Virus record (IMG/VR): IMGVR_UViG_3300037808_001516
Coordinates: 32,001-96,000 of that record
Direction: 5' to 3' (one strand)
DNA from: a virus
DNA: 64,000 bases
A model generated the notes under the pieces. It was given only the letters and a program-made list of their open reading frames with translations. It was not told the DNA's origin and made no database searches. The position numbers and the translations under genes were made by a program. Each line of letters begins with the position of its first letter. Position 1 is the first letter of the stretch. This document shows, piece after piece, positions 34,399 to 50,663 of the stretch.

Positions 34399-35290
34399 GA
34401 AAGCTCTAGGCCACTGTTGGTCTAATGAAGATGAACACCAGTTCAGTTGTCCAAAATGTAACCATCATAAGCTAAAATTATCGGTCAACATAGATAAGGA
34501 TGTGTTCAAGTGCTGGATCTGTGACTACTCTGGAACAAAGATATCGCAACTAATTAGACAGTGTACACCAGCCTATTACGCTGACTGGAGACAGTTGGCG
34601 GGAGAACTCGACCTTGCGAAATACGACACTATATTCGCAGAGCATGTGCCTGAGCCTCCGCAAATAATAGATCTACCAGAAAATTTCCAAACACTAACAG
34701 GTAAAAAGACAAGACTCAAAAGGAGAGCCCTAGGTTATCTTTACTCTCGCGGCTTTACAGATAGAGATATTTTGACTTGGAAGATTGGTTTCTGTGATTA
34801 CGGAGAGTATCAAGACAGAGTTATCATCCCAAGTTTTGATGACGATGGTAATGTTAATTTCTTTGTGGCGAGATCATATACAGACGATTGGATGAAATAC
34901 AAAAACCCAAGAGTCAGTAAGGATATTATCTTCAATGACCTCAACATTGATTGGGATGATGATGTAATCTTGGCTGAAGGCGTGTTCGATGCAATGAAGT
35001 GTAAGAATGCCGTTCCACTGCTTGGTTCGACTCTGAGGGAAAACTCAAGACTATTCCAGAAGATATGCGATCGCAAGCCTGATGTATACTTGGCTTTGGA
35101 TGAAGATGCCAAAGGGAAAGAGTTTGGGATAGCAAACAAATTGAGAGAATACGGCATTAAAGTTATGTCCATCGATGTCAGCGGCTATTCGGACATTGGA
35201 GAGATGCCACAAGAGGTGGTAGAACAGCGAAAACAAAATGCGGATATTGTATCCGATTTAGACTATTTACATTATAAATTAGATTTTTAA
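34373..35290 (+). CDS. DNA primase (DnaG-type, Zn finger + TOPRIM)
   Basis: CPKC...CWIC zinc-binding domain, RVIIP, KYKNP, LAEGVFDAM and LALDEDA TOPRIM motifs; TTG start after GGGAG. Confidence 0.9.
   Translation: MSEKLKLLKKALGHCWSNEDEHQFSCPKCNHHKLKLSVNIDKDVFKCWICDYSGTKISQLIRQCTPAYYADWRQLAGELDLAKYDTIFAEHVPEPPQIIDLPENFQTLTGKKTRLKRRALGYLYSRGFTDRDILTWKIGFCDYGEYQDRVIIPSFDDDGNVNFFVARSYTDDWMKYKNPRVSKDIIFNDLNIDWDDDVILAEGVFDAMKCKNAVPLLGSTLRENSRLFQKICDRKPDVYLALDEDAKGKEFGIANKLREYGIKVMSIDVSGYSDIGEMPQEVVEQRKQNADIVSDLDYLHYKLDF
35262..35270 (+). promoter_or_regulatory. Putative late promoter ACTATTTAC
   Basis: At the end of the primase gene, about 32 nt before the three small leader-motif ORFs. Confidence 0.5.
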
Positions 35291-35302: not shown

Positions 35303-35533
35303 ATGAAAAAATCAGAACTGAAGAGAATGATAGCAGAAGAAGTTTCCAGAATAACCGAGTCCGCCGGCTCGGTTCGTCATGACCTAAGGTATATCAAAGA
35401 GATAATTGAAGAAATCGGCGCCAACCCCGACACCGGTCCCACCGCCCTAGACTTCCAAAATATCATGGGGCATTGCAAAAGAGCGCTGCAGCGACTAGCC
35501 GACCGGGAAAAATATCAAAATCCGGCAAAATAA
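35303..35533 (+). CDS. Small protein with MKKSELKRMIAEE leader (candidate internal head protein)
   Basis: AAGGAG SD; leader shared with 35555, 35862 and 47061. Confidence 0.65.
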   Translation: MKKSELKRMIAEEVSRITESAGSVRHDLRYIKEIIEEIGANPDTGPTALDFQNIMGHCKRALQRLADREKYQNPAK

Positions 35534-35554
35534 CAAAAAAGGAGAAAATCATAA

Positions 35555-35818
35555 ATGAACAAAACACAACTAAAAAGACTAATAAAAGAAGAAACTAAAA
35601 AAGTATTAAATGAGAGAGGAAACTCCAAACAGAATGCCATGCACAATGCAAGGAGAGCACTTGAAACAGAAGATGTTAAATGGCTAAAAGATGCACTTTT
35701 ACGTTTAATGAATGAGATGGCCGGCTTAGACCCGGAGCTAAAATTTTATCTACCAAAGAAAGAAGAGCCACAGTGTCATGATACACCATTCGGCCCGTTG
35801 TGCCCGGACGATGATTGA
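35555..35818 (+). CDS. Small protein with MNKTQLKRLIKEE leader (candidate internal head protein)
   Basis: AGGAG SD; shared leader. Confidence 0.65.
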   Translation: MNKTQLKRLIKEETKKVLNERGNSKQNAMHNARRALETEDVKWLKDALLRLMNEMAGLDPELKFYLPKKEEPQCHDTPFGPLCPDDD

Positions 35819-35861
35819 TCAAGCACGGAATAGAGTCAAAACAAGCAACAGGAGAACAATA

Positions 35862-36032
35862 ATGGAACTTACAAAAAGAAGACTAAAAGAAATAATCGCA
35901 GAAGAGATGAACCACTTAGCAGAAACAGGCGACCTCAACATGATTACCGAATCAGAAAAGAAAGCATTCGCTATCATTCTTGAGAAGCTTACACCAACTC
36001 AACTTGAGACCCTCGGCCTCAAAAGAATTTAG
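35862..36032 (+). CDS. Small protein with MELTKRRLKEIIAEE leader (56 aa)
   Basis: Start re-assigned from 35778 to ATG 35862 because AGGAG lies at 35850-35854 and the shared leader begins there. Confidence 0.65.
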   Translation: MELTKRRLKEIIAEEMNHLAETGDLNMITESEKKAFAIILEKLTPTQLETLGLKRI

Positions 36033-36061
36033 TTGACACCCCTACCAAACCCTGCTATACT
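36033..36061 (+). promoter_or_regulatory. Near-consensus sigma70 promoter with extended -10
   Basis: TTGACA (36033-36038), 17 bp spacer, TGc-TATACT (36056-36061), intergenic, 30 nt before the Mre11-Rad50 ATG. Confidence 0.8.
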
Positions 36062-36091
36062 TGTATCATAACAATTATTCACGGAGAATAA

Positions 36092-39000
36092 ATGAGATTT
36101 GCTCACATTGCGGACACCCATATCCGAAACCTAAAATACCATTTTGAATACAAAGATGTATTTCAACAACTTTATAAATCACTAAAAGAAGAAAAGGTGG
36201 ACTACATTATCCACTGCGGAGACATCGCACACACCAAGACACAAATCTCACCAGAGTTTGTGGACATGTGCAGAGACTTCTTCCAGAACCTTGCAGCCAT
36301 CGCACCAACCTACATCATCCTAGGTAATCACGACGGCAACCTTCGCAACGGTTCTAGGCAAGACGCTCTTTCCCCTATTGCAAAGGCAATCAATGACCCA
36401 AATCTCATCCTGTTAAAGAACGCCGGAGAGACAAAAATCAATGATAAGTTTTGTCTAAATGTTTTATCTGTATTTGATGAGGAAAACTGGACCGAACCAA
36501 CAGACTACAACCTAGTTAACATAGCGTTATATCACGGCGCTATTGATAAATCCAAAACAGACAGCAACTGGACACTAGGCGGCGACCATAGTATCGAAAT
36601 CTTTGAAGAGTTTGACTTTGGCTTTCTTGGGGATATTCACAAAACACAAAAGTTAGATAAGGAAGGTCGTATCTGGTATGCTGGCTCTACAGTTCAACAA
36701 AATTTTGGTGAGTCATTGGATAAAGGTTATCTACTTTGGGATATTGAAAGTAAAGACAATTTTACCAATAGACTCATTACCTTCAATAACCCAAAGCCTT
36801 TCATTACTCTTCCTCTAAGTGAGAAGGGCAATCTGCCAAGACTAAAGCCACCAGAAGGTGCACGTCTTCGTATCGTATCTGAGAGTAATGTATCTCTGGA
36901 CAAGGTTCGTAAGGCCGTCGACATTGCAAAATTTAAGTACAATCCTGAGTCGGTAACTTATCTTAACAGGGCTGCCGGTAAACAAATCAAAGTAGCAGCA
37001 CCAGAAGGTCTAGAGAAACAAGACTTACGAGACATCAAGACACAGGAAACTCTAATGGCTGAGTATCTAAAAGAATACGAGTCGACAGAAGAAGTTCTAG
37101 AGAAAGTTTATAAACTAAACAAAGAATTCAACAAGCAAATTGAAGAGAACGAAGACGTAATGAGGAATGTCAATTGGTCACTTCAGAGTTTGGAGTGGGA
37201 CAACCTATTCAACTACGCAGAAGGAAACAGGATTGACTTTACCAAATTAGAAGGTATCGTTGGTATCTTTGGGAAGAATTACTCAGGCAAGTCTTCTATT
37301 GTGGATACTTTGCTTTACTCTATGTATAACTCTACCTCGAAGTCTATTCGAAAGAACTTAAACATTATCAACCAAAACAAAGATGAATGTGTTGCCACAG
37401 CAACCATCAAGGTTGATGGAACAGACTACATCATAGAACGAAAGTCAAACAAGTACACAAAGCGCCTAAAGGGTGTAGAGACTCAGGAGGCAACGACGGA
37501 CTTAGAATTCTACTCAAAAGACGCGATGGGCAATCACACGGGACTCAACGGCACATCGAGACAAGATACTGACAAGAATGTGCGAAGATACTTCGGGACT
37601 CTACCGGACTTCCTCGCAACCTCCATGGCCTCTCAGTTGGACTCGTTGTCTTTTATCAACGAGGGTTCAACAAAAAGAAAAGAGTTTCTGGCCAAGTTCT
37701 TAGATTTGGAAATCTTTGATAAGAAGTTCAAGATGGCAAAGGAAGCTTCGGCCGAAATCAAAGCGTCTCTCAAGAGGCTCGAAGGTATCGACTTTGATGG
37801 AAACATCAAGGACATCAAATCGGAAATCACCAAGGGAGAGCTTGCAATCGAAAAGAACAAAGCAATCTGCAGCACCCTCAAAGAAGAGCTAGGAGACTTA
37901 TCACAAGCTCTAAACGACCTTCAGAATAAGATTGCATCAGTTCCAGCAGACGTCATAGACCCTGTGATGACATCACGGGCCATAGCGAACAAGCAGCAAG
38001 TGATACTACAGACCACAGCTCAGAAGACTGAGGCTCAACAGCTACTAATGGAGAACGAGACAAAATTTGAAAAGATAGACACGTTTCTCGCAGCATTCGA
38101 AGTAGATTCATACCGAAAGAAGAAAGAACTTATCGATTCTAGTTCTGAAGATCTTGAATTGTTGCTTGCTCAAATGGAGAGTGAATCTAAGAAGAAGAGT
38201 AGAAATAGAGAAAAACAAGACCTACTATCACAAGTGCCTTGCGGGTCACAATTTCCCACTTGCAAGTTCATCAAGGATGCGCACCAAGCAGTCGATTTGA
38301 TTCAGATATCTGAAAAGAAGATGAGTTCTATGTCTAAAGATATCAATTCTTTAGGAGAGAAAATTTCTTCACTGGAGCCTTTGAAGGTGGCAAGCCATCT
38401 TGATAAGTACAATCAACTGGTGGAGAAGAGAAATCAAATAGCAACAACAATCGCAAACAGCAAGCTCGTTGTTGAACGCGCAGACAGCTCCCTGTTCAAG
38501 GAGCAGGTTGAATTAGATGAGCTTAATACCAAGGCAAACTTGTACGAAGAAAACAAGGAAGCTATCGAAAACCTAAAACAACTCCTATCAGATAGAGACA
38601 ATTTGAAGGAACAGGCATTATCGAAAGAAAGGGAGCTTACATCATGCGATCAGAGAATTATGCAGCTTCATAAGAAGCACGGCTCATCAGAGCAAAAGCT
38701 GGTTCACATGCAACAACAACACAAGGAGTTTCAAGAACTAGAAGAGAACTTTGCTGCCTATCACTTGTTCATGGTTTGCTGCCATCCCAATGGTGTTTCT
38801 TATGAAATCATAAAGGAGAGGTTGCCTTACATCAACCAAGAAATCTCCAAGATCTTGACAAACATTGTAGACTTCGAGGTCTTTATCTCTAACAATGAGG
38901 ACAAGCTTGACATCTTTATCAAGCACCCAAGCCACGACCCTCGTCCATTAGAGATGGGATCTGGTGCAGAGAAGACAATCGCATCAATGGCCATTCGACT

Positions 39001-39229
39001 TGCATTTTTAACTGTGTCCAGTTTACCAAAGTCCGACCTATTTATACTTGACGAGCCGGGAACTGCTCTCGATGAAGAAAACATGGAAGGCTTTGTCCGT
39101 ATCTTAGATATGGTCAAGGGATACTTCAAGACTGTTCTTCTTATCTCACATCTCGACAGTTTAAAAGATTGTGTAGACATGCAGATAAACATCGAGAAAA
39201 AGAACGGCTATGCGCACGTAAACATTTAG
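36092..39229 (+). CDS. Fused SbcD/Mre11 nuclease - SbcC/Rad50 ATPase (gp47-gp46-like)
   Basis: Phosphoesterase motifs DTH, GDIAH, GNHD, GDIH; Walker A GKNYSGKS; coiled coil with central PCGSQFPTC; signature GSGAE; Walker B LFILDEPGTALD; H-loop LISH. Confidence 0.9.
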   Translation: MRFAHIADTHIRNLKYHFEYKDVFQQLYKSLKEEKVDYIIHCGDIAHTKTQISPEFVDMCRDFFQNLAAIAPTYIILGNHDGNLRNGSRQDALSPIAKAINDPNLILLKNAGETKINDKFCLNVLSVFDEENWTEPTDYNLVNIALYHGAIDKSKTDSNWTLGGDHSIEIFEEFDFGFLGDIHKTQKLDKEGRIWYAGSTVQQNFGESLDKGYLLWDIESKDNFTNRLITFNNPKPFITLPLSEKGNLPRLKPPEGARLRIVSESNVSLDKVRKAVDIAKFKYNPESVTYLNRAAGKQIKVAAPEGLEKQDLRDIKTQETLMAEYLKEYESTEEVLEKVYKLNKEFNKQIEENEDVMRNVNWSLQSLEWDNLFNYAEGNRIDFTKLEGIVGIFGKNYSGKSSIVDTLLYSMYNSTSKSIRKNLNIINQNKDECVATATIKVDGTDYIIERKSNKYTKRLKGVETQEATTDLEFYSKDAMGNHTGLNGTSRQDTDKNVRRYFGTLPDFLATSMASQLDSLSFINEGSTKRKEFLAKFLDLEIFDKKFKMAKEASAEIKASLKRLEGIDFDGNIKDIKSEITKGELAIEKNKAICSTLKEELGDLSQALNDLQNKIASVPADVIDPVMTSRAIANKQQVILQTTAQKTEAQQLLMENETKFEKIDTFLAAFEVDSYRKKKELIDSSSEDLELLLAQMESESKKKSRNREKQDLLSQVPCGSQFPTCKFIKDAHQAVDLIQISEKKMSSMSKDINSLGEKISSLEPLKVASHLDKYNQLVEKRNQIATTIANSKLVVERADSSLFKEQVELDELNTKANLYEENKEAIENLKQLLSDRDNLKEQALSKERELTSCDQRIMQLHKKHGSSEQKLVHMQQQHKEFQELEENFAAYHLFMVCCHPNGVSYEIIKERLPYINQEISKILTNIVDFEVFISNNEDKLDIFIKHPSHDPRPLEMGSGAEKTIASMAIRLAFLTVSSLPKSDLFILDEPGTALDEENMEGFVRILDMVKGYFKTVLLISHLDSLKDCVDMQINIEKKNGYAHVNI

Positions 39230-39237
39230 GAGGATTT

Positions 39238-39438
39238 ATGATGACAGCAATAAAAGCATGGGCAGACAAACACACGGAAAGATTTATTTCTCGCAAGTTC
39301 TTAGCGTGGCTAACAGCGACAGGGCTAGTAGCATACGGCTCAGTAACTTCTTCGGACTGGGTTTCGGTAACGTTAGCATACATTGGATCACAAGCAGCAG
39401 TCGACCTTGCCACACAGTGGAAGCACGGTAAGCAATAA
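39238..39438 (+). CDS. Putative holin
   Basis: AGGAGG SD at 39228-39233 gives a start at ATG 39238 or 39241; 65-66 aa, SRKF motif, two hydrophobic segments, basic C-terminus. Confidence 0.55.
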   Translation: MMTAIKAWADKHTERFISRKFLAWLTATGLVAYGSVTSSDWVSVTLAYIGSQAAVDLATQWKHGKQ

Positions 39439-39824
39439 TGTTATATCTCAAGATCTTCTGGGCTTGGATAAAGAAAAACTGGAAGCTATCAGCACTTGCA
39501 GCATGGACCATTTTTATTTGGCTTGTGTCTCGCAAGAATGCCGATGGCGCCATCCAAGCCATGAAGGCGAACAAGGAGTCTTATGAAGCTCAGATCCAGG
39601 GCCTCAAAGATGCTCACGAAGAGGAAGTTCAAAAAAGAGAAGAACTTCACTTAAAATATCGTGTGACTCTTGGTAAGATAAAAGAAAAATACGATCTCGA
39701 AGAAGAACAGCTTTCTCGTAAAAAGAAAAAGAAAGTAAAAGAGATCATAAAGAAAGCAAAGGACAATCCTGATGAGATCAATGAAAAAATTGAAAACCTC
39801 TTTGGCTTTACTGCTGCTGATTAG
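39438..39824 (+). CDS. Putative inner-membrane spanin-like protein
   Basis: N-terminal hydrophobic helix then charged coiled coil; follows the holin and overlaps the next gene. Confidence 0.45.
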   Translation: MLYLKIFWAWIKKNWKLSALAAWTIFIWLVSRKNADGAIQAMKANKESYEAQIQGLKDAHEEEVQKREELHLKYRVTLGKIKEKYDLEEEQLSRKKKKKVKEIIKKAKDNPDEINEKIENLFGFTAAD

Positions 39825-40215
39825 TTTTACCAGCATCTCGTTTGCAGCGCCAGGAAAATATAAACAAGTAGAGCAAGGGGACACTGTCCCTTTTTCTGGT
39901 TGGTGTTTTGACAAAGAAGCATCAGCACAGATACTAGCAGACAAAGAATTTCAAGAAAAACAATGCAAGCTCAAGACCAATAGAGCTTTACAGATTCAGT
40001 TCGCAAACTATGATTTAGAGTTGGGTAAACTCAAGGCCGACATGAAATATGAAGTTGGCACAAGAGATACGATTATCGAAGCTCTAAAGGAAGAGAATCT
40101 AAAATTAGAAAAAGTTATTATCGATAGTTCGAACACTCACTGGCACGTCTTCGCATCTCTCGGCTTTGTAGCTGGAGCTATATTGACCATAGTAATTGTG
40201 GAGACTGTAGAGTGA
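39781..40215 (+). CDS. Secreted coiled-coil protein with C-terminal membrane helix (spanin-partner candidate)
   Basis: MKKLKTSLALLLLISFTSISFA signal peptide with no lipobox Cys; two Cys; C-terminal WHVFASLGFVAGAILTIVIV. Confidence 0.45.
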   Translation: MKKLKTSLALLLLISFTSISFAAPGKYKQVEQGDTVPFSGWCFDKEASAQILADKEFQEKQCKLKTNRALQIQFANYDLELGKLKADMKYEVGTRDTIIEALKEENLKLEKVIIDSSNTHWHVFASLGFVAGAILTIVIVETVE

Positions 40216-40583
40216 AAGAAAAAGATCTAAACGAAGTAGCTAAAATAGAAAAAGCAATAAAGGAGAAGTACGGAGATGAAGCGATTCAGAACCCTAAGGG
40301 ATCTTGGGATCAGGAGAAAGAAAATAAATATCTGGAAGACCTCAAATCTTTTTACAAAAGGGATCCTCGCAAAAAAACAACAGAGGTCATTGGGGATGTC
40401 AAAATTAAAACAAGAAAAGCATCGAACCAGGTAGAGAGAGAATGCCCAGTTTGTGGTTCATATTCCTTCTCTGGACGAGATGATGTTTATATGACAAAGT
40501 TTAACTGCTGTTTTGATTGTTATATTCAGCATGTCGACGGCCGAGAAGAAAGATGGAAATCGGGCTGGAGACCAAACAACTAA
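40212..40583 (+). CDS. Zinc-finger hypothetical protein
   Basis: GTG start; CPVC...CCFDC. Confidence 0.6.
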   Translation: MKEKDLNEVAKIEKAIKEKYGDEAIQNPKGSWDQEKENKYLEDLKSFYKRDPRKKTTEVIGDVKIKTRKASNQVERECPVCGSYSFSGRDDVYMTKFNCCFDCYIQHVDGREERWKSGWRPNN

Positions 40584-40609
40584 CTATTTACTATTAGAAA
40601 ACTATTTAT
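40583..40609 (+). promoter_or_regulatory. Tandem late-promoter motifs ACTATTTAC / ACTATTTAT
   Basis: Copies at 40583-40591 and 40601-40609 in front of the packaging/head operon. Confidence 0.65.
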
Positions 40610-40629
40610 TGTAAGAGGAATTTAAAACA

Positions 40630-41130
40630 ATGGCAACAACTTTAGAAATTATAAACTGTATCTCACAGGTACTTGCTAATTCATATGACGGAGCACTTGA
40701 CGAGAGCGGAGAACCGGTTAAAATTGGTCTCCGAAGGGAAGAGGGTAACCCCCTAATAGATCAAAGAGTCATGGACGGATTTGGAGCGCACATCAGCGGA
40801 AACAGACTTCACATCAAATACCACGCAGAAATACCACTTAAAGAAGTTCACTCAAATGGTTTCGAGGGAGAGATGGAATCCATGGTGGAGAAGGTCAAGT
40901 CTTTTATTCAGAAGGAATACAATAAATTGAAAAAATCTTCTCTTTCTCTTTCGGATCCAAGTGAGGTTGATGTTCTTGTTGAATATGTATCTCGTATACG
41001 TTGCAGTGTCAAGGTACACAAATGCTACGAAATAGGAGGAGTCCAGTCAGAGATCAACGATCCAGAATCTACTGAGCGTCCCACAGACCCATCATTCGCT
41101 AAGATGGTTGCTCTCGGCGGACTTAAGTAA
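40630..41130 (+). CDS. Hypothetical protein upstream of terminase
   Basis: 166 aa with GAGGA SD; no recognised motif. Position is compatible with a packaging or head role. Confidence 0.55.
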   Translation: MATTLEIINCISQVLANSYDGALDESGEPVKIGLRREEGNPLIDQRVMDGFGAHISGNRLHIKYHAEIPLKEVHSNGFEGEMESMVEKVKSFIQKEYNKLKKSSLSLSDPSEVDVLVEYVSRIRCSVKVHKCYEIGGVQSEINDPESTERPTDPSFAKMVALGGLK

Positions 41131-41139
41131 GAGGCTTTA

Positions 41140-42726
41140 GTGTCGATAAAACTTACCAAGCAAGAAATAATGAAGGAAATTGTCCGATGCGGCAAGAAGC
41201 CTGAATACTTTATCCACACATACGCAAAGATAACTCACCCAATGAGAGGGCTGATACCCTTCCACTTGTATCCATTCCAAGAAGACCTGTTGGAAGATTT
41301 CGAAGACAATCGATTCAACATCATACTCAAAGCGAGACAGTTGGGAATCTCTACAGTCACCGCGGCATACGTTGCATGGATGATGATGTTTCATCGAGAG
41401 AAGAATGTGCTTGTCATCGCGACTAAGTTTAACACCGCGGCAAACTTAGTAAAGAAAGTTAAGGCAATCATCAAAGCTTTACCAGATTGGCTAAAGATCT
41501 CCACAGTAGATATAGACAATAGAACCTCATTTGTTCTTTCTAACGGATCACAAATTAAGGCATCATCCACATCCGGGGACGCCGGGCGATCGGAAGCACT
41601 ATCTCTTCTCGTCATAGATGAAGCAGCACACGTAGAAGGCCTTGACGAGCTGTGGATGGGCCTCTACCCTACACTATCAACTGGTGGTCGATGCATCGCC
41701 TTGTCTACCCCTAATGGTGTGGGAAATTGGTTTCACAAAAACTACGTAGAAGCGGAGAATAAGTCAAATGATTTTTTCCCAACAAAACTACCGTGGGACG
41801 TCCACCCAGATAGAGACCAGGAGTGGTTTGAAAAAGAGACCAGAAATATGTCTCGTAGGGAAATTGCTCAGGAGCTAGAGTGCAACTTTAACATGTCTGG
41901 TGAGACAGTCTTCGGCGCCGAGGACTTGGAATTATATTTGAACATGTCTTGTGAACCCAAGCACCGAACTGGATTCGACAGAAACCTTTGGATCTGGGAA
42001 GAGAGAAGACAAAACAACACTTACCTTATCGCTGCAGATGTTGCCCGCGGTGATGGTAAGGATTACTCAGTGTGCCATGTTTTCAAATTGGAAACAATGG
42101 AACTTGTTGCAGAGTATCAGGGAAAGGTTACACCGGACGTGTTCTCTAGGGTTCTATTTGACGTGGGACAAGAGTATGGAAACGGATTACTGGTGGTAGA
42201 AAACAACTCAGTAGGTTTTGCAGTCCTTGACAAGCTTAAGGAAATGCAGTATCCTAATCTTTACCATTCCATTAAGTCCACACACGAGTTTGTGGAGGAA
42301 TATCAAGCAGATCAGATGTCCAACGCGGTACCTGGATTCTCTACAACGTCAAAAACGAGACCTTTAATAGTCGCTAAGATGGAAGAATTCATTAGAAATA
42401 ACCTAATTAAGATATATTCCACTCGTCTACTAGCTGAAATGAAGACTTTTGTTTGGAATAACGGAAGAGCCGAAGCTATGAGATCTTACAACGACGATCT
42501 CATAATGGCTTGCGCCGTCGGGTGCTGGGTTAGAGATACTGCACTGGCAGTAAACCAGAGGGACGCCGAGTACGCTAAAGCTTTTATAGGTTCCATTACG
42601 AAAACTACAAACGAAATGGACACGAGGATAAAAGGTATGGTTGGAACGCAAAAATTAAAAATGACAGATGCCGCAAATGAGCATCAACAAAACATCGCCG
42701 CATTTCCGTGGCTATTTAAGGGATAA
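41140..42726 (+). CDS. terL: Terminase large subunit (T4 gp17-like)
   Basis: LYPFQ adenine-binding motif, Walker A KARQLGIST, Walker B LLVIDEAAH, LSTPNG coupling motif, nuclease ADVARGDGKDYS and NDDLIMA. Confidence 0.95.
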   Translation: MSIKLTKQEIMKEIVRCGKKPEYFIHTYAKITHPMRGLIPFHLYPFQEDLLEDFEDNRFNIILKARQLGISTVTAAYVAWMMMFHREKNVLVIATKFNTAANLVKKVKAIIKALPDWLKISTVDIDNRTSFVLSNGSQIKASSTSGDAGRSEALSLLVIDEAAHVEGLDELWMGLYPTLSTGGRCIALSTPNGVGNWFHKNYVEAENKSNDFFPTKLPWDVHPDRDQEWFEKETRNMSRREIAQELECNFNMSGETVFGAEDLELYLNMSCEPKHRTGFDRNLWIWEERRQNNTYLIAADVARGDGKDYSVCHVFKLETMELVAEYQGKVTPDVFSRVLFDVGQEYGNGLLVVENNSVGFAVLDKLKEMQYPNLYHSIKSTHEFVEEYQADQMSNAVPGFSTTSKTRPLIVAKMEEFIRNNLIKIYSTRLLAEMKTFVWNNGRAEAMRSYNDDLIMACAVGCWVRDTALAVNQRDAEYAKAFIGSITKTTNEMDTRIKGMVGTQKLKMTDAANEHQQNIAAFPWLFKG

Positions 42727-42729
42727 AAC

Positions 42730-44718
42730 ATGGCAAGCAAAAAGAATAAAAACAACACAAGAAACCCACAAAGTCTATTGTTCAGGAGACTGACGAGACT
42801 GTTGTCGGGCCCTCTGACTCAGTACCGGACTCAAAACAATCACCGGCTCAGGAGAATTGACTTAGACAAATATGCTAATAGCTTTACTTCTACATCCGGA
42901 AAGGATTTTAAAAAGACTGCGTACAATCCTTACGACAATTTGCAAGCGCAATATATGGCATCTCAACAGAGAGCAGAAAGATACGTAGACTTCGACCAGA
43001 TGGAATACACACCTGAGATTGCTTCCTCACTTGATATCTATGCTGACGAGATGACAACTTACTCTTCTCTCTCTCCGATGTTAAGCATTGAGTGCCCCAA
43101 TGAAGAGATCAAGGCAATTCTAAGCTCTCTTTACAGTAATGTGTTGAACATAGAACACAACATGTTCTCTTGGTGTCGAACAATGTGCAAGTATGGAGAC
43201 TTCTTCTTATATCTCGATATAGATGATGAGCTTGGAGTTACGTCAGTTATTGGTCTCCCAACACAAGAGCTTGAAAGATTAGAAGGAGAAGATAAAACAA
43301 ATCCTAATTATGTGCAATATCAGTGGAACTCAGCCGGACTTACTTTTGAAAACTGGCAAGTGGGACACTTTAGAATCCTCGGCCAAGACAAATACAACCC
43401 ATATGGCACATCTGTTTTGGAACCATCGAGGAGAATATGGAGACAACTAACCCTTATCGAAGACGCTATGATGGCGTATCGTATCGTTAGATCACCCGAG
43501 AGGAAAGCTTTCTATATCGACGTTGGCAATATACCTCCGCAAGACATAGAACAGTATATGCAAAAGGTGATGACTCAAATGAAGAGAAATCAAGTTGTAG
43601 ATTCAAAGACAGGCCGAGTAGACTTGAGGTATAATCCACTCTCAGTGGAAGAAGATTATTTCATCCCTGTCCGCGGCAATAGCAGTACAAAGATAGAGAC
43701 GGTACCTGGAGGTAAATATACAGGCGATATCGACGATGTTAAGTATTTGAGAGACAAACTGTTTTCTGCACTTAAGATACCAGCCGCTTACATTTCTTCC
43801 GACGGAGAAAAAGCGATGGAAGACAAGACAACCCTGGCACAGAAAGACATTAGATTTGCAAGGACAATCCAAAGACTTCAAAGGTCTGTCATATCAGAGC
43901 TTGAAAAGATTGGAATTATTCACCTTTATACGTTGGGGTACAGAGAAGAAGATCTTGTTTCCTTCACATGTCACTTAAACAATCCCTCAAAGATCGCCGA
44001 GATGCAAGAACTCGAACACTGGAAGAGTAGATTCGAAATAGCGGGGAACGCAACAGAAGGGTTCTTTTCTAAGCAATGGCTAGCAAAGACTTTATTCGGA
44101 ATGTCCAACGAAGAATTTATCAGGAACAGAAGAGAAATGTTCTACGACAAACGATACGAGGCAGCTCTAGAGACAGCAGGGGAAGCCGAGCAGGCAGAGT
44201 TAACTTCTGATTTGAATTCCGGAGTCGATGATCTTGAGACGACTGCAGGCAATGCGGACCTCGCCGGCGGCACCGGCGCCGTAGGTTCTGAGCCTGAACT
44301 TGGTGCTTCGATACCTGCCGCTGGTGCAGACCTTGGAGCAGACGATGCTGGCCAGGACGGAGACCTACTAGCAACACCACCAGGAAAACGAGAGGACGAC
44401 AAGGGAAGAACCACGACAGACAAGTCTCACGGATGGTACGAGCCCCGCGGACTAAAGCCCGGCGGAGACCGTAGAAGGGCGTCAGGACCACGGAAGAAAA
44501 ACATGAACCGCGCCGCATCCCCGGAAACAGGAACAATGAGAAAGATGTTCCCTGGTATGGAAGAACTTTCAGGCTTAACAAAAGCAACCAGTGTTTATGA
44601 AGATAAAAAGACTAATTATAAAGTAGAGGAGACAAAAATCCTCAAAGAACAAAAAGAGTTAGATGCTCTTTTCAAAAGCCTAAAAGCGAGGGACGAAAAG
44701 AATGAGACTGAAGCATAA
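42730..44718 (+). CDS. Portal protein (T4 gp20-like)
   Basis: PEIASSLDIYADE, LIEDAMMAYRIVRSPERKAFYIDVGNIP, EEDYFIPVRG, DIDDVKYLRDKLFSALKIP; acidic then basic C-terminal extension. Confidence 0.95.
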   Translation: MASKKNKNNTRNPQSLLFRRLTRLLSGPLTQYRTQNNHRLRRIDLDKYANSFTSTSGKDFKKTAYNPYDNLQAQYMASQQRAERYVDFDQMEYTPEIASSLDIYADEMTTYSSLSPMLSIECPNEEIKAILSSLYSNVLNIEHNMFSWCRTMCKYGDFFLYLDIDDELGVTSVIGLPTQELERLEGEDKTNPNYVQYQWNSAGLTFENWQVGHFRILGQDKYNPYGTSVLEPSRRIWRQLTLIEDAMMAYRIVRSPERKAFYIDVGNIPPQDIEQYMQKVMTQMKRNQVVDSKTGRVDLRYNPLSVEEDYFIPVRGNSSTKIETVPGGKYTGDIDDVKYLRDKLFSALKIPAAYISSDGEKAMEDKTTLAQKDIRFARTIQRLQRSVISELEKIGIIHLYTLGYREEDLVSFTCHLNNPSKIAEMQELEHWKSRFEIAGNATEGFFSKQWLAKTLFGMSNEEFIRNRREMFYDKRYEAALETAGEAEQAELTSDLNSGVDDLETTAGNADLAGGTGAVGSEPELGASIPAAGADLGADDAGQDGDLLATPPGKREDDKGRTTTDKSHGWYEPRGLKPGGDRRRASGPRKKNMNRAASPETGTMRKMFPGMEELSGLTKATSVYEDKKTNYKVEETKILKEQKELDALFKSLKARDEKNETEA

Positions 44719-45520
44719 CAAGAAAAGAAACACAGCATTTGTTTACGAGGCACTGGTAAGAGAGTTGACAGAGTCGGTTGTTAAGAACAACAAAAACAAA
44801 CAAAACAAGATTGTTTCAATTATCAAGGACCACTTCAAGGGAGACTCCTTATTGAAAAAGGAGCTGGAGCTTTATAGAACCATATATGAAACCCGACATA
44901 TTGAAAAGACCACAGCCGAGAAGATTGTTGTCCAAGTTAAAGAAAAGCACGACTCTATGGATAAGAGGATGTTGTTCTTGGAACAATCTGCGCTCATCAA
45001 TAAGATAAACAGAACACTGTCGAACAAAGTTTATAACAACTTTGTTCCAAATTATAAGACGATAGCTTCGGTTTATTCTATTTTTCAAGAGGCACTGCCA
45101 GTAAAGGACAGAGTTCTTCTGGAAGAGAACATTGTTGATCAAATGTCCGCATCAGCAAACACAATCCAAGAGTCGCAACAACCTATTGATTCACTTGTGT
45201 ATGGAACTTTTGTAACTAAGTTCAACGAAGAGTATTCTGATTCGTTGAATGAGAATCAAAAAACGCTCCTAAGCACCTATGTATCCTCTTTTGAGAACAA
45301 TGGAGTGGACTTGAAGATATACTTAAACGAGGAGATCGGTAGAATAAAGGGAAGGCTAGTCGAAATAAAAGAAGAAAACAACAATTCAGAGCTTAAAGAA
45401 AAGTTAGAAAAAGTTTATAATATTTTAGATGAGACAAAGACAAAAGAAATAGACACCTCTACATTAGAGGTTGTTCTTTCTACGCAACAGTTATTGGAAG
45501 AGTTGGAAAATGGCGATTGA
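44702..45520 (+). CDS. Head-module hypothetical protein (helical)
   Basis: 272 aa overlapping the portal end; many [LI]-x-E sites. Confidence 0.6.
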   Translation: MRLKHNKKRNTAFVYEALVRELTESVVKNNKNKQNKIVSIIKDHFKGDSLLKKELELYRTIYETRHIEKTTAEKIVVQVKEKHDSMDKRMLFLEQSALINKINRTLSNKVYNNFVPNYKTIASVYSIFQEALPVKDRVLLEENIVDQMSASANTIQESQQPIDSLVYGTFVTKFNEEYSDSLNENQKTLLSTYVSSFENNGVDLKIYLNEEIGRIKGRLVEIKEENNNSELKEKLEKVYNILDETKTKEIDTSTLEVVLSTQQLLEELENGD

Positions 45521-46052
45521 TATTAAAATAGAATTAGACCCTAGGATAAATTTAAAAGCCAGAAGAACAATAGAGGGCAACATTATAATACTAGACCATG
45601 AAGACATGGACATAGTTTTGATGTCTGAGAAGAAGAAGTGTATAGCGTTTCCGAAGGAGTCAATGTCGGATAAGGTTTACTCCTCTCAGGACAGGATGTT
45701 CAACTTCTTAGCCAAAAGAGGATTGATAAATCGTGGCACCATTCGCGGAGGTAATGTCTTTGGTTCCTTAGAGGCAGACATGCTTGAATCTAAGATCCCC
45801 GGTGTTGATTACGGCCAAGCACTTCTATATTCTATTCACGAATATATTACAGACGAGCGCCCATATTTCAAATCAGCTGAAGAGTATGATGATGCTCGCC
45901 TTGATGCAATGCTTCGCCCTTCAACTGAAGATTCGACTGAGCTTGGAGACGTGCCGCAGAAAGCCAGTAAGGGTTCGATGACTAAACAGATCGGACCATA
46001 CGGCTTTCAATACAACTACTCCCTCGTCAGAGAGGACCAAGGTGAAGACTAG
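45510..46052 (+). CDS. Head-module hypothetical protein
   Basis: Start re-assigned to ATG 45510 (MAIDIKIELD), overlapping the upstream stop. Confidence 0.6.
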   Translation: MAIDIKIELDPRINLKARRTIEGNIIILDHEDMDIVLMSEKKKCIAFPKESMSDKVYSSQDRMFNFLAKRGLINRGTIRGGNVFGSLEADMLESKIPGVDYGQALLYSIHEYITDERPYFKSAEEYDDARLDAMLRPSTEDSTELGDVPQKASKGSMTKQIGPYGFQYNYSLVREDQGED

Positions 46053-46363
46053 TGACATTTATTTGGTTCTCACTTATTTCATATGGCCTCACCCAGATCC
46101 TCGTTTACGGAAAAATCCTAGACCCAATCCGCCCAAAGTCCGGAAAGTTAGGGCAATTGCTTGAGTGCCCAATGTGCACCGGCTTTTGGGTGGGTCTATT
46201 TTTATGGTCCGTAAAGGACTATACTCAACTATTTACTTTTGATAATTCTTTTGTTACAGGCATACTGCTTGGTTTCGCCGGCTCCGGCTCGGCATACATC
46301 GGCAATATGATTTTTGGTGACGAAGGAATAAAAATTGAACATCTTGTAAGGGAGAAAAAATGA
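46052..46363 (+). CDS. Small membrane protein, DUF1360-like
   Basis: GTG start; hydrophobic helices with LLECPMCTGFW (CxxC..FW) motif. Confidence 0.55.
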   Translation: MTFIWFSLISYGLTQILVYGKILDPIRPKSGKLGQLLECPMCTGFWVGLFLWSVKDYTQLFTFDNSFVTGILLGFAGSGSAYIGNMIFGDEGIKIEHLVREKK

Positions 46364-46425
46364 GAGACTTAATTACAATAAAGAGAATGCTAAGACCAGT
46401 AAGACGCTGTAAAGCCGGCTGCTAG
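46360..46425 (+). CDS. 21-aa basic, Cys-containing mini-ORF MRDLITIKRMLRPVRRCKAGC
   Basis: GGGAG SD, ATGA overlap with the upstream stop, ends at TAG 46423-46425. Too short for the ORF track. Confidence 0.4.
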   Translation: MRDLITIKRMLRPVRRCKAGC

Positions 46426-46458
46426 ATGACGCGGGTGGCCCCCGCTGTGAGGAAAAAC

Positions 46459-47064
46459 ATGAAACTTATTAGAGAATATTACGAATTATGCGAAGGCGGC
46501 GTATGCCAAGACCTTCTTACTGAAGATGACAAGAAGTTTGTCGCCGAAGGCGGCCGCATGTTGTCCGGCGTTATGCAAATGGCAGAAACTCAAAACGGTA
46601 ATGGCAGAGTGTACCCACAAGCCATACTGGAAAGAGAGGTCGCTAACTATGCCAAGCTTGTAAAAGAACGCAGAGCACTTGGGGAACTAGACCATCCAGA
46701 CAGTTCTGTCATTAACTTGGCTAACGCTTCGCATATGGTCACTAAGATATGGATGGAAGGCAAGGTCTGTAAAGGTACAATTAGGGTATTGCCGACACCA
46801 TCCGGAAAGATCCTTGAGGGCCTCATTGACGCTGGTTGCCTGTTGGGTATATCCTCACGAGGTATGGGGTCGGTGACTGAGAGAAACGGTATTACTATGG
46901 TAGAGGATGATTTCCAGCTTCTTTGTTTTGATATGGTTTCAGACCCTTCAACGCCAGGAGCTTTCATGTTAAAAGAGGCTAAAGAAAACACAAACATCTT
47001 CACCAAAGAAGACAAGATTGACAGAGCTATAAACAACTTTCTACATAAGTTTGGAGAAAAATGA
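46459..47064 (+). CDS. Prohead core protease (T4 gp21-like)
   Basis: NGNGRVYP, GELDHP (catalytic His), GISSRGMGS (catalytic Ser), FDMVSDPSTPGA; start re-assigned to ATG 46459 after a GAGG SD. Confidence 0.92.
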   Translation: MKLIREYYELCEGGVCQDLLTEDDKKFVAEGGRMLSGVMQMAETQNGNGRVYPQAILEREVANYAKLVKERRALGELDHPDSSVINLANASHMVTKIWMEGKVCKGTIRVLPTPSGKILEGLIDAGCLLGISSRGMGSVTERNGITMVEDDFQLLCFDMVSDPSTPGAFMLKEAKENTNIFTKEDKIDRAINNFLHKFGEK

Positions 47065-47477
47065 AGAAATCAGAGTTAAAAAACATCATTAAAGAGTGTG
47101 TAAAGGAAATATTGTTCGAAGAGGGCGTACTTTCTAATCTCGTCGCAGAGGTTGCATTTGGTATTGCAAAAGCTCAAGGAACATTGGTGGAAAACAACAA
47201 GCAACCCCAAGACACGAAAGCAGCGCAAGAATTAAAAGAAGAACAACAAGAGTCGAGAAGACAAAAACTTCTCGAAACAAAAAGAAAGATGCTAGATGCT
47301 ATGGGTAATCAAAACATGGCTAACGTCTTCGAAGGTACAGAACCACTCAAGTCTGCCGGCACCCCTCAGGCTTCACCAGCCCAAGGACCGATGGCAGGAA
47401 GAGACCCTAACGATGCTGGTGTAGATATCAGCGGTTTGTTTAGTGTAGCAGGACAAAAGTGGAACGCTCTAAAGTAA
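47061..47477 (+). CDS. Head-module protein with MKKSELKNIIKE leader
   Basis: Coupled to the protease gene; leader nearly identical to 35303. Confidence 0.65.
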   Translation: MKKSELKNIIKECVKEILFEEGVLSNLVAEVAFGIAKAQGTLVENNKQPQDTKAAQELKEEQQESRRQKLLETKRKMLDAMGNQNMANVFEGTEPLKSAGTPQASPAQGPMAGRDPNDAGVDISGLFSVAGQKWNALK

Positions 47478-47487
47478 AGGAGAAACG

Positions 47488-47724
47488 ATGAGCAAAGGAA
47501 AAGTATGTCACGTTGAAATCGTGATACATGATCAGAACCAAGTAGAGAGGATGATCAAGAAGTTTACGCGCAAGTGTAAAAAGCAAGGTCTGTTCGCAGA
47601 ACTACAGGAAAGAAGATACTTCAAAAAGAAGTCTCTTAAGATGAAAGAAAAACGGGAAAATAAAAAGAGGTTGTCCCAAAAAACAACTCAAAAGATGAAA
47701 GACAAATTTAACAAATTTGATTAG
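47488..47724 (+). CDS. rpsU: Phage-encoded ribosomal protein bS21
   Basis: 78 aa, very basic; V.I...VERMIKKFTRKCKKQGLFAELQERRYFKKKS follows the bS21 pattern; AAGGAG SD; located among head genes as in described bS21 phages. Confidence 0.8.
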   Translation: MSKGKVCHVEIVIHDQNQVERMIKKFTRKCKKQGLFAELQERRYFKKKSLKMKEKRENKKRLSQKTTQKMKDKFNKFD

Positions 47725-49466: not shown

Positions 49467-50663
49467 ATGTCAAACTTACTGGAAAGAGCAATCATCGATG
49501 CAAAAGCGTTGAAGGAAGTGGCGCTTAAAAACGCAGAACAGCTTGTAATAGAGAAATACTCTGTAGAAGTCAAAGAAGCGATGAGCCAGATCCTTGAAGA
49601 TGAATCTGCCGAAGCCATGGTCGACCTCTTCGGAGATGAACAGTCTGCAGAAGCAGGCATGCCCGAGTCTCCTGAAGGAGAAGAACTCGAAGATCCTATC
49701 ACAACTAGTGATATAGAATCTCAGATACCAGATGCATTCATGTCCGACGACGAAGAAATAATCCAAATCAAGTTGGACTCTCTCGATGATGAAATCGAAG
49801 ACGAAGATGCTTTGTTTGGAGGAGACGACAAGCTGGATGACGATGAGATAGGTATCGACATCACAGACGACGAAGAGATGGACGCGGACCTTGATGCCTC
49901 TATCGAGCCTGACATCGACCTGGGATCTGATCTCGGCTCCGACATAGGCGCAGGCATGGACACTGCAGGATTGCAAGAAGTCATAGCTTCCGCTTTACAG
50001 GATATTCTATCCGAGGAAGAAGAGGATGAGGAAGACCTTAACGAAGAGGACAAAGAAGAACTCGATGAGGAGATTGACCTAGATGAGCTTATGGAAAGAG
50101 TCAGAGTCGAAGGCACTCCACAAAAGTCTGGTTGGGCCGGAACACCAGAATCTATCATGAAAGAATACGAATCAATGCTGCTTGCTAGAGAGCAAGACAG
50201 CGAAGTAAAAGAAGAGAACGAGGAACTTCGAAAGAATGTTGCCGCTCTTCAAAAAGAAAACAAGACACTTACTTCTGCGGCACTCAAGCTGCAGGAGCAA
50301 AACAAAGATTTTACTACAGCATTTAACACATTGCAAGAAAAGTTAGAGACCATGAATGTTTCCAACGCAAAGTTGCTGTATATTAACCAGGCTCTAGAAA
50401 ATGCCTCCTTGAATGAGCGACAAAAAAGAAAAATTGTCGAAGCCATTTCGAAAGCCGGAACAGTACAAGAAGCAAAGATTGTATTTGAAACTATGAACGA
50501 CACAGTTGTTACTACTTCAGACGTGAGGAAAGAAACTACTTTAAGTGAAATGGTATCAAGAAAGTCTTCACTACTTGTCGCGGCTCGAAAAGAGCAACCA
50601 AAACAGGAAGCCAGCCCCTTATTCAATAGAATGCAAGCGCTGGCAGGAATAAAGACAAATTAA
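49467..50663 (+). CDS. Prohead scaffold/core protein (gp22-like role)
   Basis: Highly acidic middle, coiled-coil C-half, many [LI]-x-E sites, ends RMQALAGI; immediately upstream of the MCP. Confidence 0.75.
   Translation: MSNLLERAIIDAKALKEVALKNAEQLVIEKYSVEVKEAMSQILEDESAEAMVDLFGDEQSAEAGMPESPEGEELEDPITTSDIESQIPDAFMSDDEEIIQIKLDSLDDEIEDEDALFGGDDKLDDDEIGIDITDDEEMDADLDASIEPDIDLGSDLGSDIGAGMDTAGLQEVIASALQDILSEEEEDEEDLNEEDKEELDEEIDLDELMERVRVEGTPQKSGWAGTPESIMKEYESMLLAREQDSEVKEENEELRKNVAALQKENKTLTSAALKLQEQNKDFTTAFNTLQEKLETMNVSNAKLLYINQALENASLNERQKRKIVEAISKAGTVQEAKIVFETMNDTVVTTSDVRKETTLSEMVSRKSSLLVAARKEQPKQEASPLFNRMQALAGIKTN

What the first reader, a model, noticed from the sequence alone, without database searches (positions are those of the whole stretch)
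35303..47477. Shared N-terminal leader on four small late proteins: candidate capsid-targeting and protein-delivery system
Seen: 35303 MKKSELKRMIAEEVSRITE-S, 35555 MNKTQLKRLIKEETKKVLNE-R, 35862 MELTKRRLKEIIAEEMNHLAE-T and 47061 MKKSELKNIIKECVKEILFE-E share L-K-x-x-I-x-E-[EC] followed 6-7 residues later by [IL]-x-E, while their C-terminal parts are unrelated. The three clustered genes follow a late motif (35262) although they sit between primase and the recombination nuclease; the fourth is coupled to the prohead protease gene. Known: T4 internal proteins carry a short N-terminal capsid-targeting sequence removed by gp21 after [IL]-x-E, and IPI* blocks a host restriction system. Inference: this amphipathic leader is a different packaging tag that loads swappable cargo (possibly anti-defence) into the head for injection.
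Basis: partly seen in the sequence, partly recalled or inferred. Interest (0 to 1): 0.8.

Follow-up and report, generated by a model that had tools for sequence, protein, structure and literature searches.

The report
Capsid-targeting-like leader on phage proteins
Five otherwise unrelated small proteins of this uncultured marine T4-like phage begin with the same 20-residue helical tag, whose key residues are spaced as in phage T4's capsid-targeting sequence, so it most likely loads proteins into the phage head and is then cut off, though no experiment shows this yet.

Summary
All four ORFs exist with good ribosome-binding sites. A fifth lies outside the window at genome 4195-4665. A profile built only from 241 leaders of other phages ranks exactly these five first among 3,149 six-frame ORFs of this genome: E 3e-6 to 9e-4 for four, 0.011 for the protease-coupled one, 0.3 for the next ORF.

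The tag (consensus MKITKSQLKQIIKEELEKVLEE) heads about 8,000 protein clusters. In the sampled viral contigs nearly all sit in one clade of marine T4-like phages, usually in tandem arrays with unrelated downstream sequence.

Its conserved residues lie at -6, -3, -2 and 0 from an invariant Glu. That is the spacing of the residues shown by mutagenesis to direct targeting and processing in T4's capsid-targeting sequence. The pattern repeats 8 residues later. The phage encodes a T4 gp21-family protease.

The best reading is a T4-style head-loading propeptide. It is a variant of that known system, not a new kind of tag. The fourth protein is a conserved head-core gene, not swappable cargo. Packaging, cleavage, injection and any anti-defence role are untested. 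Most cargos in relatives are acidic.

This scan noted the same leader earlier on other genomes. I found no paper describing it.

The parts
35262..35269 (+). ACTATTTA late-type promoter-like motif, 34 nt upstream of the first leader gene
   Evidence: CTATTTA is the most enriched 7-mer upstream of genes (13 seen, 1.2 expected). Genome-wide it occurs 24 times on the + strand and 3 on the - strand. It lies upstream of the scaffold gene (49467), 52599, the fibre gene (57279), 61465 and 40630.
35303..35533 (+). Leader protein 1 (76 aa). Leader is residues 1-19, MKKSELKRMIAE|EVSRITE|S. The cargo has no relatives beyond near-identical copies.
   Evidence: (E 8.6e-4); no Pfam or PHROG hit.
35555..35818 (+). 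Leader protein 2 (87 aa). Leader is residues 1-20, MNKTQLKRLIKE|ETKKVLNE|R. The cargo has no relatives other than itself.
   Evidence: (E 2.9e-6).
35862..36032 (+). Leader protein 3 (56 aa). Leader is residues 1-21, MELTKRRLKEIIAE|EMNHLAE|T.
   Evidence: AGGAG 7 nt before this ATG; E 2.1e-5.
36033..36061 (+). Near-consensus sigma-70-type promoter (TTGACA-17-TATACT, with TG) that restarts transcription for the nuclease gene right after the leader trio
   Evidence: 11 of 12 matches; 11 such sites on the + strand, none between window 36100 and 73600, the stretch that holds the head and fibre genes identified here; another lies at 34265 before the primase.
46426..47064 (+). Prohead protease of the T4 gp21 family. 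The true start is probably Met12 at 46459, giving the N-terminus MKLIRE.
   Evidence: Pfam Peptidase_S77 E 9.8e-29; PHROG 207 E 2.5e-54. Many relatives align only from residues 8-14.
47061..47477 (+). Conserved head-core protein (138 aa) with a leader-like N-terminus, MKKSELKNIIKE|CVKEILFE|E, and a nearly invariant [LIV][LIV]-E44. Its start codon overlaps the protease stop.
   Evidence: E 0.011; 47 distinct orthologues, 33 aligned. AlphaFold2 gives helices 3-20, 22-41, 53-82 and 124-137 with a disordered linker after E44, at low confidence (pLDDT 66.6).
49467..50663 (+). Acidic coiled-coil scaffold (T4 gp22 position), N-terminus MSNLLERAIIDA; the presumed docking partner of the leader
   Evidence: The N-terminus is conserved in 25 relatives. 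The gene lies directly upstream of the major capsid gene and has ACTATTTA upstream.
50700..52481 (+). Major capsid protein (T4 gp23-like) with a conserved candidate maturation site, ELLRE|[ASQ]S, at residues 55-59
   Evidence: PHROG 138 E 5e-70. ELLRE is invariant in the 28 distinct relatives aligned.

Best explanation
The shared N-terminus is a prohead-core targeting propeptide of the T4 capsid-targeting-sequence (CTS) type.

Anatomy: it is a 20-22-residue amphipathic helix made of two copies of one unit, hydrophobic-x-x-hydrophobic-hydrophobic-x-Glu (LKQIIKE, one spacer residue, then LEKVLEE in the consensus).

Proposed mechanism (inferred):
1. The hydrophobic face docks the protein onto the helical scaffolding core while the prohead assembles.
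2. The gp21-family protease then cuts after one or both Glu residues (I-x-E at about residue 12, [IL]-x-E at about residue 20).
3. This frees the downstream protein inside the head.
4. The freed protein either stays with the DNA and is ejected into the next host, or is degraded with the scaffold.

In this genome the tag sits on three species-specific small proteins in a late-type cassette between primase and nuclease. It also sits on a basic Cys-rich protein at genome 4195. A looser form heads the conserved head-core protein that follows the protease.

Shown: the tag, its spread, its residue pattern, and the presence of the protease. Inferred: docking, cutting, packaging and delivery.
For: 1. 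Family membership was tested independently of this genome.

2. Conserved positions relative to the invariant Glu are L at -6 (99%), I at -3 (94%), I at -2 (97%) and E at 0 (100%). T4 IPII and IPIII start MKTYQEFIAE, which puts Y4, F7, I8 and E10 at the same offsets. In T4, residues 4 and 7 govern targeting and residues 8 and 10 govern processing (PMC9026906). T4 gp24's propeptide MAKINELLRE fits the same spacing.

3. The same spacing recurs around a second Glu at +8 (L/I at +2, V/L at +5, L at +6).

4. The protease is Peptidase_S77. T4 gp21 cuts after L/I-x-E. The capsid protein keeps an invariant L-R-E site.

5. In the family of the genome-4195 protein, E20 directly before the cargo is invariant in 49 sequences. 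A member with only a short N-terminus starts MKISEIITE|ACWKGY, which is about the length of the T4 CTS. AlphaFold2 ends the leader helix at residue 19.

6. The tag is portable. 249 cargos fall into 194 BLAST clusters, and about 7,987 representative clusters match the tag.

7. Of 79 viral loci picked by the tag alone, 74 share genes with this phage. Arrays often lie inside the head module, next to the protease or terminase. The one near-complete contig without shared genes also has an S77 protease.

8. Conservation is at the protein level. Synonymous codons vary, and internal copies without Met occur in multi-unit proteins.

9. The trio has a late-type motif upstream and a sigma-70-type promoter downstream.
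Against: - No virion proteome or N-terminal data exist for any phage that bears the tag. The tag profile found nothing in T4, HTVC008M, Syn9, S-PM2, RM378 or Mel-JY01, so published proteomes cannot be used.
- There is no statistically detectable sequence similarity to the T4 CTS. The shared spacing is also what any amphipathic helix gives.
- Cargos in relatives are mostly acidic (median pI 5.1, 46% below 5), unlike the basic T4 internal proteins.
- In relatives only 14% of arrays have the late-type motif within 150 nt, against 7% of control ORFs. Many arrays lie beside replication genes.
- A few cargos are enzymes that could work in the cytoplasm: an RNase_T exonuclease and an AAA_33 kinase-like protein.
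- P1' would be Glu at the first site, whereas A or S is usual in T4.
Confidence: 0.55

Rival explanations
1. The leader is a docking helix for some other shared partner, not the prohead. Candidates would be a chaperone, a host hub protein or a phage regulator, or the helix could be a general oligomerisation element. The Glu residues would then be ordinary helix-surface charges.
For: The hydrophobic -6/-3/-2 spacing is generic for amphipathic helices. Many arrays lie next to replication and recombination genes, and few have a late-type motif. Cargos are mostly acidic, and a few are cytoplasmic-type enzymes.
Against: The two Glu positions are invariant (100%) while neighbouring surface positions vary. 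E20 at the leader-cargo junction is invariant in the genome-4195 family. Leader genes recur directly beside the protease and terminase genes. No other conserved enzyme or partner gene flanks the arrays. The sampled distribution follows one T4-like clade with an S77 protease.
Confidence: 0.2
2. The genes are one fast-evolving paralogous family of small helical proteins. Only the N-terminal helix stays recognisable, and there is no targeting or cleavage role.
For: The genes lie in tandem arrays, as expected from duplication. Most cargos are short, have no known domain and are predicted helical or disordered.
Against: The same tag heads proteins with unrelated recognised domains: RNase_T, AAA_33, PG_binding_1 and a beta-rich Cys module. 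Lengths range from 30 to 603 aa. The tag occurs as internal repeats between unrelated segments. Conservation drops abruptly after residue 22, which points to a module boundary rather than gradual decay.
Confidence: 0.12
3. The conservation reflects an mRNA or translation-start feature, such as an A-rich unstructured 5' coding region, or a recombination junction, and not a peptide function.
For: Codons in the leader are more A-rich than in the cargo (for example CAA 93% at -7 and GAA 95% at 0).
Against: Synonymous codons vary at every conserved position (Leu CTT/CTA/TTA, Ile ATT/ATC/ATA, Glu GAA/GAG). Internal leader copies far from any start codon, and lacking Met, keep the peptide.
Confidence: 0.03

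Closest known systems
Capsid targeting sequence (CTS) of phage T4 internal proteins IPI, IPII and IPIII (MKTYQEFIAE), removed by the gp21 protease (PMC9026906, PMC3012670)
   Same: Both are short N-terminal tags shared by otherwise unrelated proteins. Hydrophobic residues lie at -6, -3 and -2 from a Glu that fits the L/I-x-E protease motif. Both phages encode an S77 (gp21-family) protease. Cargo is hypervariable between related phages.
   Different: There is no detectable sequence homology. The tag here is 20-22 residues, against 10 in T4. The unit is duplicated, giving two candidate cut sites. The scale is far larger: thousands of cargo families, arrays of up to 10 genes within a 20-kb locus, and multi-unit polyproteins. 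Most cargos are acidic rather than basic. No experimental proof exists.
N-terminal propeptides of T4 head proteins gp24 (MAKINELLRE) and gp22 (MLKEQLIAE), and the prohead core proteins gp67 and gp68
   Same: The protein at 47061 is a small, helical, partly disordered protein encoded next to the protease. It has an N-terminal [IL]-x-E propeptide-like helix and a further conserved [LIV][LIV]-E site, as expected of a core component that the protease processes.
   Different: hhalign finds no relation to gp67 or gp68. The gene lies after the protease, not before it. A separate 398-aa acidic scaffold occupies the gp22 position.
Propeptides of ejection and inner-body proteins of phiKZ-like giant phages (201phi2-1, SPN3US), cut by a diverged gp21-like protease after S/A-x-E (PMC9026906, PMC5694885)
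   Same: Many different head-internal proteins are processed after Glu. Propeptides carry redundant cut sites.
   Different: The cut motif and the phage lineage differ. Those propeptides are long and are not one portable consensus tag.

Membership tests
T4-type capsid targeting sequence (CTS) / internal-protein system | Short tag at the extreme N-terminus, shared by proteins that are otherwise unrelated | tested here: met
   All five matches start at Met1. The cargos are BLAST singletons. Conservation ends at about residue 22.
T4-type capsid targeting sequence (CTS) / internal-protein system | Tag ends in the gp21 cleavage motif L/I-x-E | tested here: met
   I-[AK]-E at residues 10-12 (12-14 in 35862) in all five, then [IL]-x-E 7-8 residues later in all five. 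The Glu is invariant in 232 leaders.
T4-type capsid targeting sequence (CTS) / internal-protein system | Determinants spaced as CTS residues 4 and 7 (targeting) and 8 and 10 (processing) | tested here: met
   L at -6 (99%), I at -3 (94%), I at -2 (97%), E at 0 (100%), against Y4, F7, I8 and E10 of MKTYQEFIAE. The pattern is also generic for amphipathic helices.
T4-type capsid targeting sequence (CTS) / internal-protein system | Phage encodes a gp21-family (Peptidase_S77) prohead protease | tested here: met
   46426-47064: Pfam PF03420 E 9.8e-29. The only near-complete tag-bearing contig without shared genes also has it.
T4-type capsid targeting sequence (CTS) / internal-protein system | Sequence homology to the T-even CTS (MKTYQEFIAE) | tested here: not met
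   The leader HMM scores IPII at -1.4 bits, and IPIII does not appear in the listing at all. The tag profile finds nothing in the whole T4 genome.
T4-type capsid targeting sequence (CTS) / internal-protein system | Late expression together with head genes | tested here: inconclusive
   The trio follows ACTATTTA, a motif also found before the scaffold and fibre genes, and lies between two sigma-70-type promoters. In relatives only 14% of arrays have the motif, against 7% of controls. No transcript data.
T4-type capsid targeting sequence (CTS) / internal-protein system | Proteins present in virions with the tag removed, and ejected with the DNA | not testable with these tools
   No cultured tag-bearing phage with a virion proteome was found. 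Only Flavobacterium phage immuto has weak matches.
T4-type capsid targeting sequence (CTS) / internal-protein system | Cargo is basic and DNA-associated, as IPI-III are | tested here: inconclusive
   The genome-4195 cargo has pI 9.9 and a Lys/Arg-rich tail. The three clustered cargos have pI 5.0-7.9. The median in relatives is 5.1.
T4 prohead core proteins gp67/gp68/gp22 (considered for 47061 only) | Sequence or profile homology | tested here: not met
   hhalign probability 0.3% against gp68 and 0.5% against gp67. No Pfam or PHROG hit above the curated cut-offs.

The most novel reading that the evidence does not exclude
A large clade of uncultured marine T4-like phages uses a duplicated CTS-type address tag to load a hypervariable set of proteins into the capsid for delivery with the DNA. 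The set spans thousands of families and includes enzymes and multi-unit polyproteins that the head protease would cut apart. That would be a protein-injection repertoire far larger than the three internal proteins of T4.
Probability: 0.4. Interest if true: 0.85.

Novelty: new variant of a known kind. Interest (0 to 1): 0.68.

Why it matters
If the tag does load proteins into the head, it gives a sequence-only way to list the proteins these phages inject. Injected proteins are the first phage products to meet host defences, and they are almost unknown outside T4, P1 and phiKZ-like phages.

It would extend the T4 CTS from a T-even curiosity to a general device of gp21-protease phages. It would point to the scaffold-binding rule (hydrophobic at -6, -3, -2 from the cut Glu). 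It would also supply a natural tag for loading foreign proteins into non-model phage capsids.

The hypothesis can be tested directly by virion N-terminomics or by a protease-plus-reporter assay.

Tried and rejected
- **Near-identical DNA in sequenced phages:** none.
- **tblastn with a 22-aa consensus leader, and with a two-leader protein, against 50,697 phage records:** no leader matches, probably because the low-complexity filter masks the tag. Only a cargo domain hit cyanophages.
- **Pfam, PHROGs and the ESM Atlas on the four proteins:** nothing named.
- **Homology of the 47061 family to T4 gp67 or gp68:** none.
- **Foldseek of the genome-4195 model against the PDB:** no match.
- **Cargo homologues of 35303 and 35555:** only self or near-identical copies.
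- **Cultured tag-bearing phage with a virion proteome (HTVC008M, Syn9, S-PM2, RM378, Mel-JY01, T4):** none carries the tag.
- **Full-text search for the motif string:** no paper.
- **The search for related loci with the broad leader alignment:** failed; a tighter alignment worked.
- **mRNA-level explanation:** rejected because synonymous codons vary.
- **Leader recognised by a neighbouring modifying enzyme, as in RiPP systems:** considered unlikely. The only conserved enzymes next to the arrays are the nuclease, terminase and protease.
Full report
**Setting.** The window is bases 32001-96000 of a single 143,905-bp viral contig. It is a distant marine T4-like myophage.
- The portal is Portal_T4 (E 1e-78), the terminase is of the T4 type, and the capsid protein is gp23-like.
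- The closest sequenced phages are Flavobacterium phage immuto, Microcystis phage Mel-JY01 and Rhodothermus phage RM378, at only 40-47% protein identity.
- The gene at 46426-47064 is a Peptidase_S77 prohead protease, the T4 gp21 family (E 9.8e-29).

**Observation.** The four ORFs exist as described, and each has an AGGAG/GGAG site.
- For the third ORF, the ATG at 35862 has the ribosome-binding site; the longer 35778 start does not.
- The ATG at 47061 overlaps the protease stop codon.
- A profile made from the four leaders found a fifth gene outside the window, at genome 4195-4665. It starts MKKQELIQIIKEEIEAVLLE|KCQKGY.
- To avoid circularity I rebuilt the profile from 241 distinct leaders of other phages and searched all 3,149 six-frame ORFs of this genome. 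The five genes are the five best hits: E 2.9e-6, 2.1e-5, 7e-5, 8.6e-4 and 0.011. The next ORF scores 0.3.
- The downstream parts share no BLASTP similarity with each other or with 244 other cargos.

**How widespread the tag is.** I fetched 80 loci around protease homologues and 79 loci chosen only because they carry the tag.
- The consensus is MKITKSQLKQIIKEELEKVLEE.
- Against 1.84 billion representative proteins, 7,987 clusters match at E <= 1e-3. All that I looked up are metagenomic and unnamed.
- Of the 79 tag-selected loci, 74 share genes with this phage and 54 contain its terminase.
- Of the five loci without shared genes, the only near-complete contig has an S77 protease. The other four are 11-45% fragments.
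- Tag genes are all on the + strand and form tandem runs of up to 7; one 20-kb locus holds 10.
- They fill recurrent slots: primase|nuclease (as here), nuclease|next conserved gene, the gene before the terminase|terminase, membrane protein|protease, and protease|47061 orthologue.
- 249 cargos fall into 194 clusters; 173 are singletons. Median protein length is 111 aa.
- Of the 70 longest tagged proteins, only five match any Pfam family: AAA_33, RNase_T, PG_binding_1, a DNA-polymerase-B exonuclease domain and a marginal Cmr2 hit.

**Anatomy of the tag.** I anchored 232 leaders on the invariant Glu.
- L is at -6 (99%), I at -3 (94%), I at -2 (97%), E at 0 and E at +1 (100% each).
- Then come L/I at +2, V/L at +5, L at +6 and E at +8.
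- So the unit hydrophobic-x-x-hydrophobic-hydrophobic-x-Glu occurs twice.
- 57% of leaders have [IL]-x-E within the 12 residues after EE, against 10% of control windows, with a sharp peak at +8.
- After about +9 the sequence becomes G/E/D/S-rich, like a linker.
- AlphaFold2 models of two tagged proteins place a helix at residues 3-19 or 3-20.
- Synonymous codons vary at every conserved position.
- Some database proteins carry 2-4 tag copies inside one chain, several without Met.
- The constraint is therefore on the peptide, not on the RNA.

**Comparison with T4, using sequences fetched here.**
- T4 IPII and IPIII both start MKTYQEFIAE|A, gp24 starts MAKINELLRE|S, and gp22 starts MLKEQLIAE|A.
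- In the CTS, Y4, F7, I8 and E10 lie at -6, -3, -2 and 0. Mutagenesis places targeting at residues 4 and 7 and processing at residues 8 and 10. gp21 cuts after L/I-x-E (PMC9026906).
- The marine tag has the same spacing, a longer N-terminal lead-in (MKITKSQ against MKT), and a second copy of the unit.
- Redundant cut sites in propeptides are documented for phiKZ.
- There is no significant sequence similarity to the T4 CTS, and the whole T4 genome has no match to the tag profile.
- This is resemblance of design, not demonstrated homology. An amphipathic helix would give the hydrophobic spacing anyway. What goes beyond that is the invariance of the Glu pair.

**Protease specificity in this clade (inferred).** The capsid protein keeps an invariant ENQAKELLRE|[ASQ]S before the conserved core in the 28 distinct relatives aligned; immuto has IVSE|A at the same place. 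The scaffold starts MSNLLE and the protease probably starts MKLIRE.

**The junction Glu.** The genome-4195 protein belongs to a family with 872 homologues.
- In 49 aligned members, E20 directly before [RK]-C22 is invariant.
- A member without the long leader starts MKISEIITE|ACWKGY, about the length of the T4 CTS.
- This is the best single hint that the Glu at the tag-cargo junction is functional.
- This cargo is basic (pI 9.9) with a Lys/Arg tail, like a DNA-associated internal protein. Its fold has no PDB match.

**The fourth protein is different.**
- I recovered 47 distinct orthologues of 47061 from the 80 protease-anchored loci, lying at or shortly after the protease gene.
- More distant orthologues read MKKSDLKxLIKPLVKECIHEVLLEEG, so its N-terminus is a relative of the tag, not a copy. 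That fits its weak score (E 0.011).
- It has a nearly invariant [LIV][LIV]-E44 at the end of helix 2, then a hypervariable linker, a basic helix, FEGTEPL, and a conserved C-terminal helix.
- It looks like a processed scaffold-accessory protein. It shows no relation to T4 gp67 or gp68.

**Timing.**
- ACTATTTA is the most enriched upstream word in this genome.
- It is strongly strand-biased and lies before the scaffold gene, 52599, both fibre genes and 40630.
- The trio has it 34 nt upstream, inside the end of the primase gene.
- Immediately after the trio there is an 11/12 sigma-70-type promoter for the nuclease gene. Another lies before the primase.
- No such strong promoter lies in the head and fibre gene region.
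- So the trio looks like a late cassette set between two early genes.
- In relatives the link is weak: 14% of arrays have the motif, against 7% of control ORFs. No expression data exist.

**Weak points.**
- There is no virion proteome for any tag-bearing phage.
- The tag is absent from T4, HTVC008M, Syn9, S-PM2, RM378 and Mel-JY01. It is only weakly present in immuto (MKKSQLRQIIKEAL; MKKSQIVKAVQEVLEE).
- Cargos are mostly acidic.
- Some cargos are enzymes that could act in the cytoplasm.
- Many arrays sit among replication genes.
- Nothing here bears on an anti-defence role.

**Prior knowledge.**
- The concept of a conserved CTS on diverse internal proteins is established for T-even phages (PMC3012670; PMC9026906).
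- I found no paper containing this motif.
- No paper among those holding 'capsid targeting', 'T4-like', 'marine' and 'N-terminal' describes it.
- Earlier notes of this scan report the same MKITKSQLKQIIKEE leader on other genomes and read it the same way. Those are unchecked leads. The tests above are my own.

**Verdict.** The tag is best read as a longer, duplicated variant of the T4 capsid-targeting propeptide (about 55% confidence). The main rival is a docking helix for some other partner.

Noticed in passing
window 47488-47724 (+): A ribosomal protein bS21 gene (Pfam Ribosomal_S21, E 2.7e-9) sits inside the head module, directly after the protease-coupled protein.
   Followed up: partly
window 47736-48155 and 48165-49367 (+): Two adjacent proteins (139 and 400 aa) share a similar C-terminal region of about 110 residues (GYA.ENQRYLHL ... 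VSGVDRVYF). The longer one has a Laminin_G_3 / concanavalin-like domain. They may be capsid decoration proteins.
   Followed up: no
database proteins P0003, P0004, P0008, P0010; L047:151-939: Single polypeptides hold 2-4 leader copies separated by unrelated segments, and some internal copies lack Met. They look like polyproteins of tag-cargo units. I did not test whether they are cut apart or also made from internal starts.
   Followed up: partly
genome 3668-4665 (locus L084), outside the window: The fifth leader gene follows a 176-aa protein that ends in a WPSAYASGALVKCRKVGAANWG motif, behind an ACTATTTA motif. One homologue (P0284) fuses the two protein types. The basic Cys-rich family has 872 homologues, no Pfam family and no PDB fold match.
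   Followed up: partly
window 46426-46459: The protease ORF probably starts at Met12 (46459), giving MKLIRE. Many relatives align only from residues 8-14, and T4 gp21 has a comparable LIE near its N-terminus.
   Followed up: partly
L037:2223-2966, L039:3198-3959, L042:3218-3994, L067:397-1221, L080:3363-4139: A conserved family of about 250-275 aa in relatives starts with a leader-like MNISRSDLYRIILEEY. This genome has no evident counterpart.
   Followed up: no
window 34265-34294 and 36033-36061, and further sites beyond 73600: Near-consensus sigma-70-type promoters (11-12 of 12 matches) occur 11 times on the + strand and 3 times on the - strand. None lies in the head and fibre gene region. 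Together with ACTATTTA this gives a workable early/late map of the genome.
   Followed up: partly
L164 (Flavobacterium phage vB_FspM_immuto_3-5A) 287-1045 and 10454-10675: This cultured phage has two proteins with leader-like N-termini. One of them lies two genes upstream of its prohead protease. It is the only isolate seen that could serve for an experimental test.
   Followed up: partly
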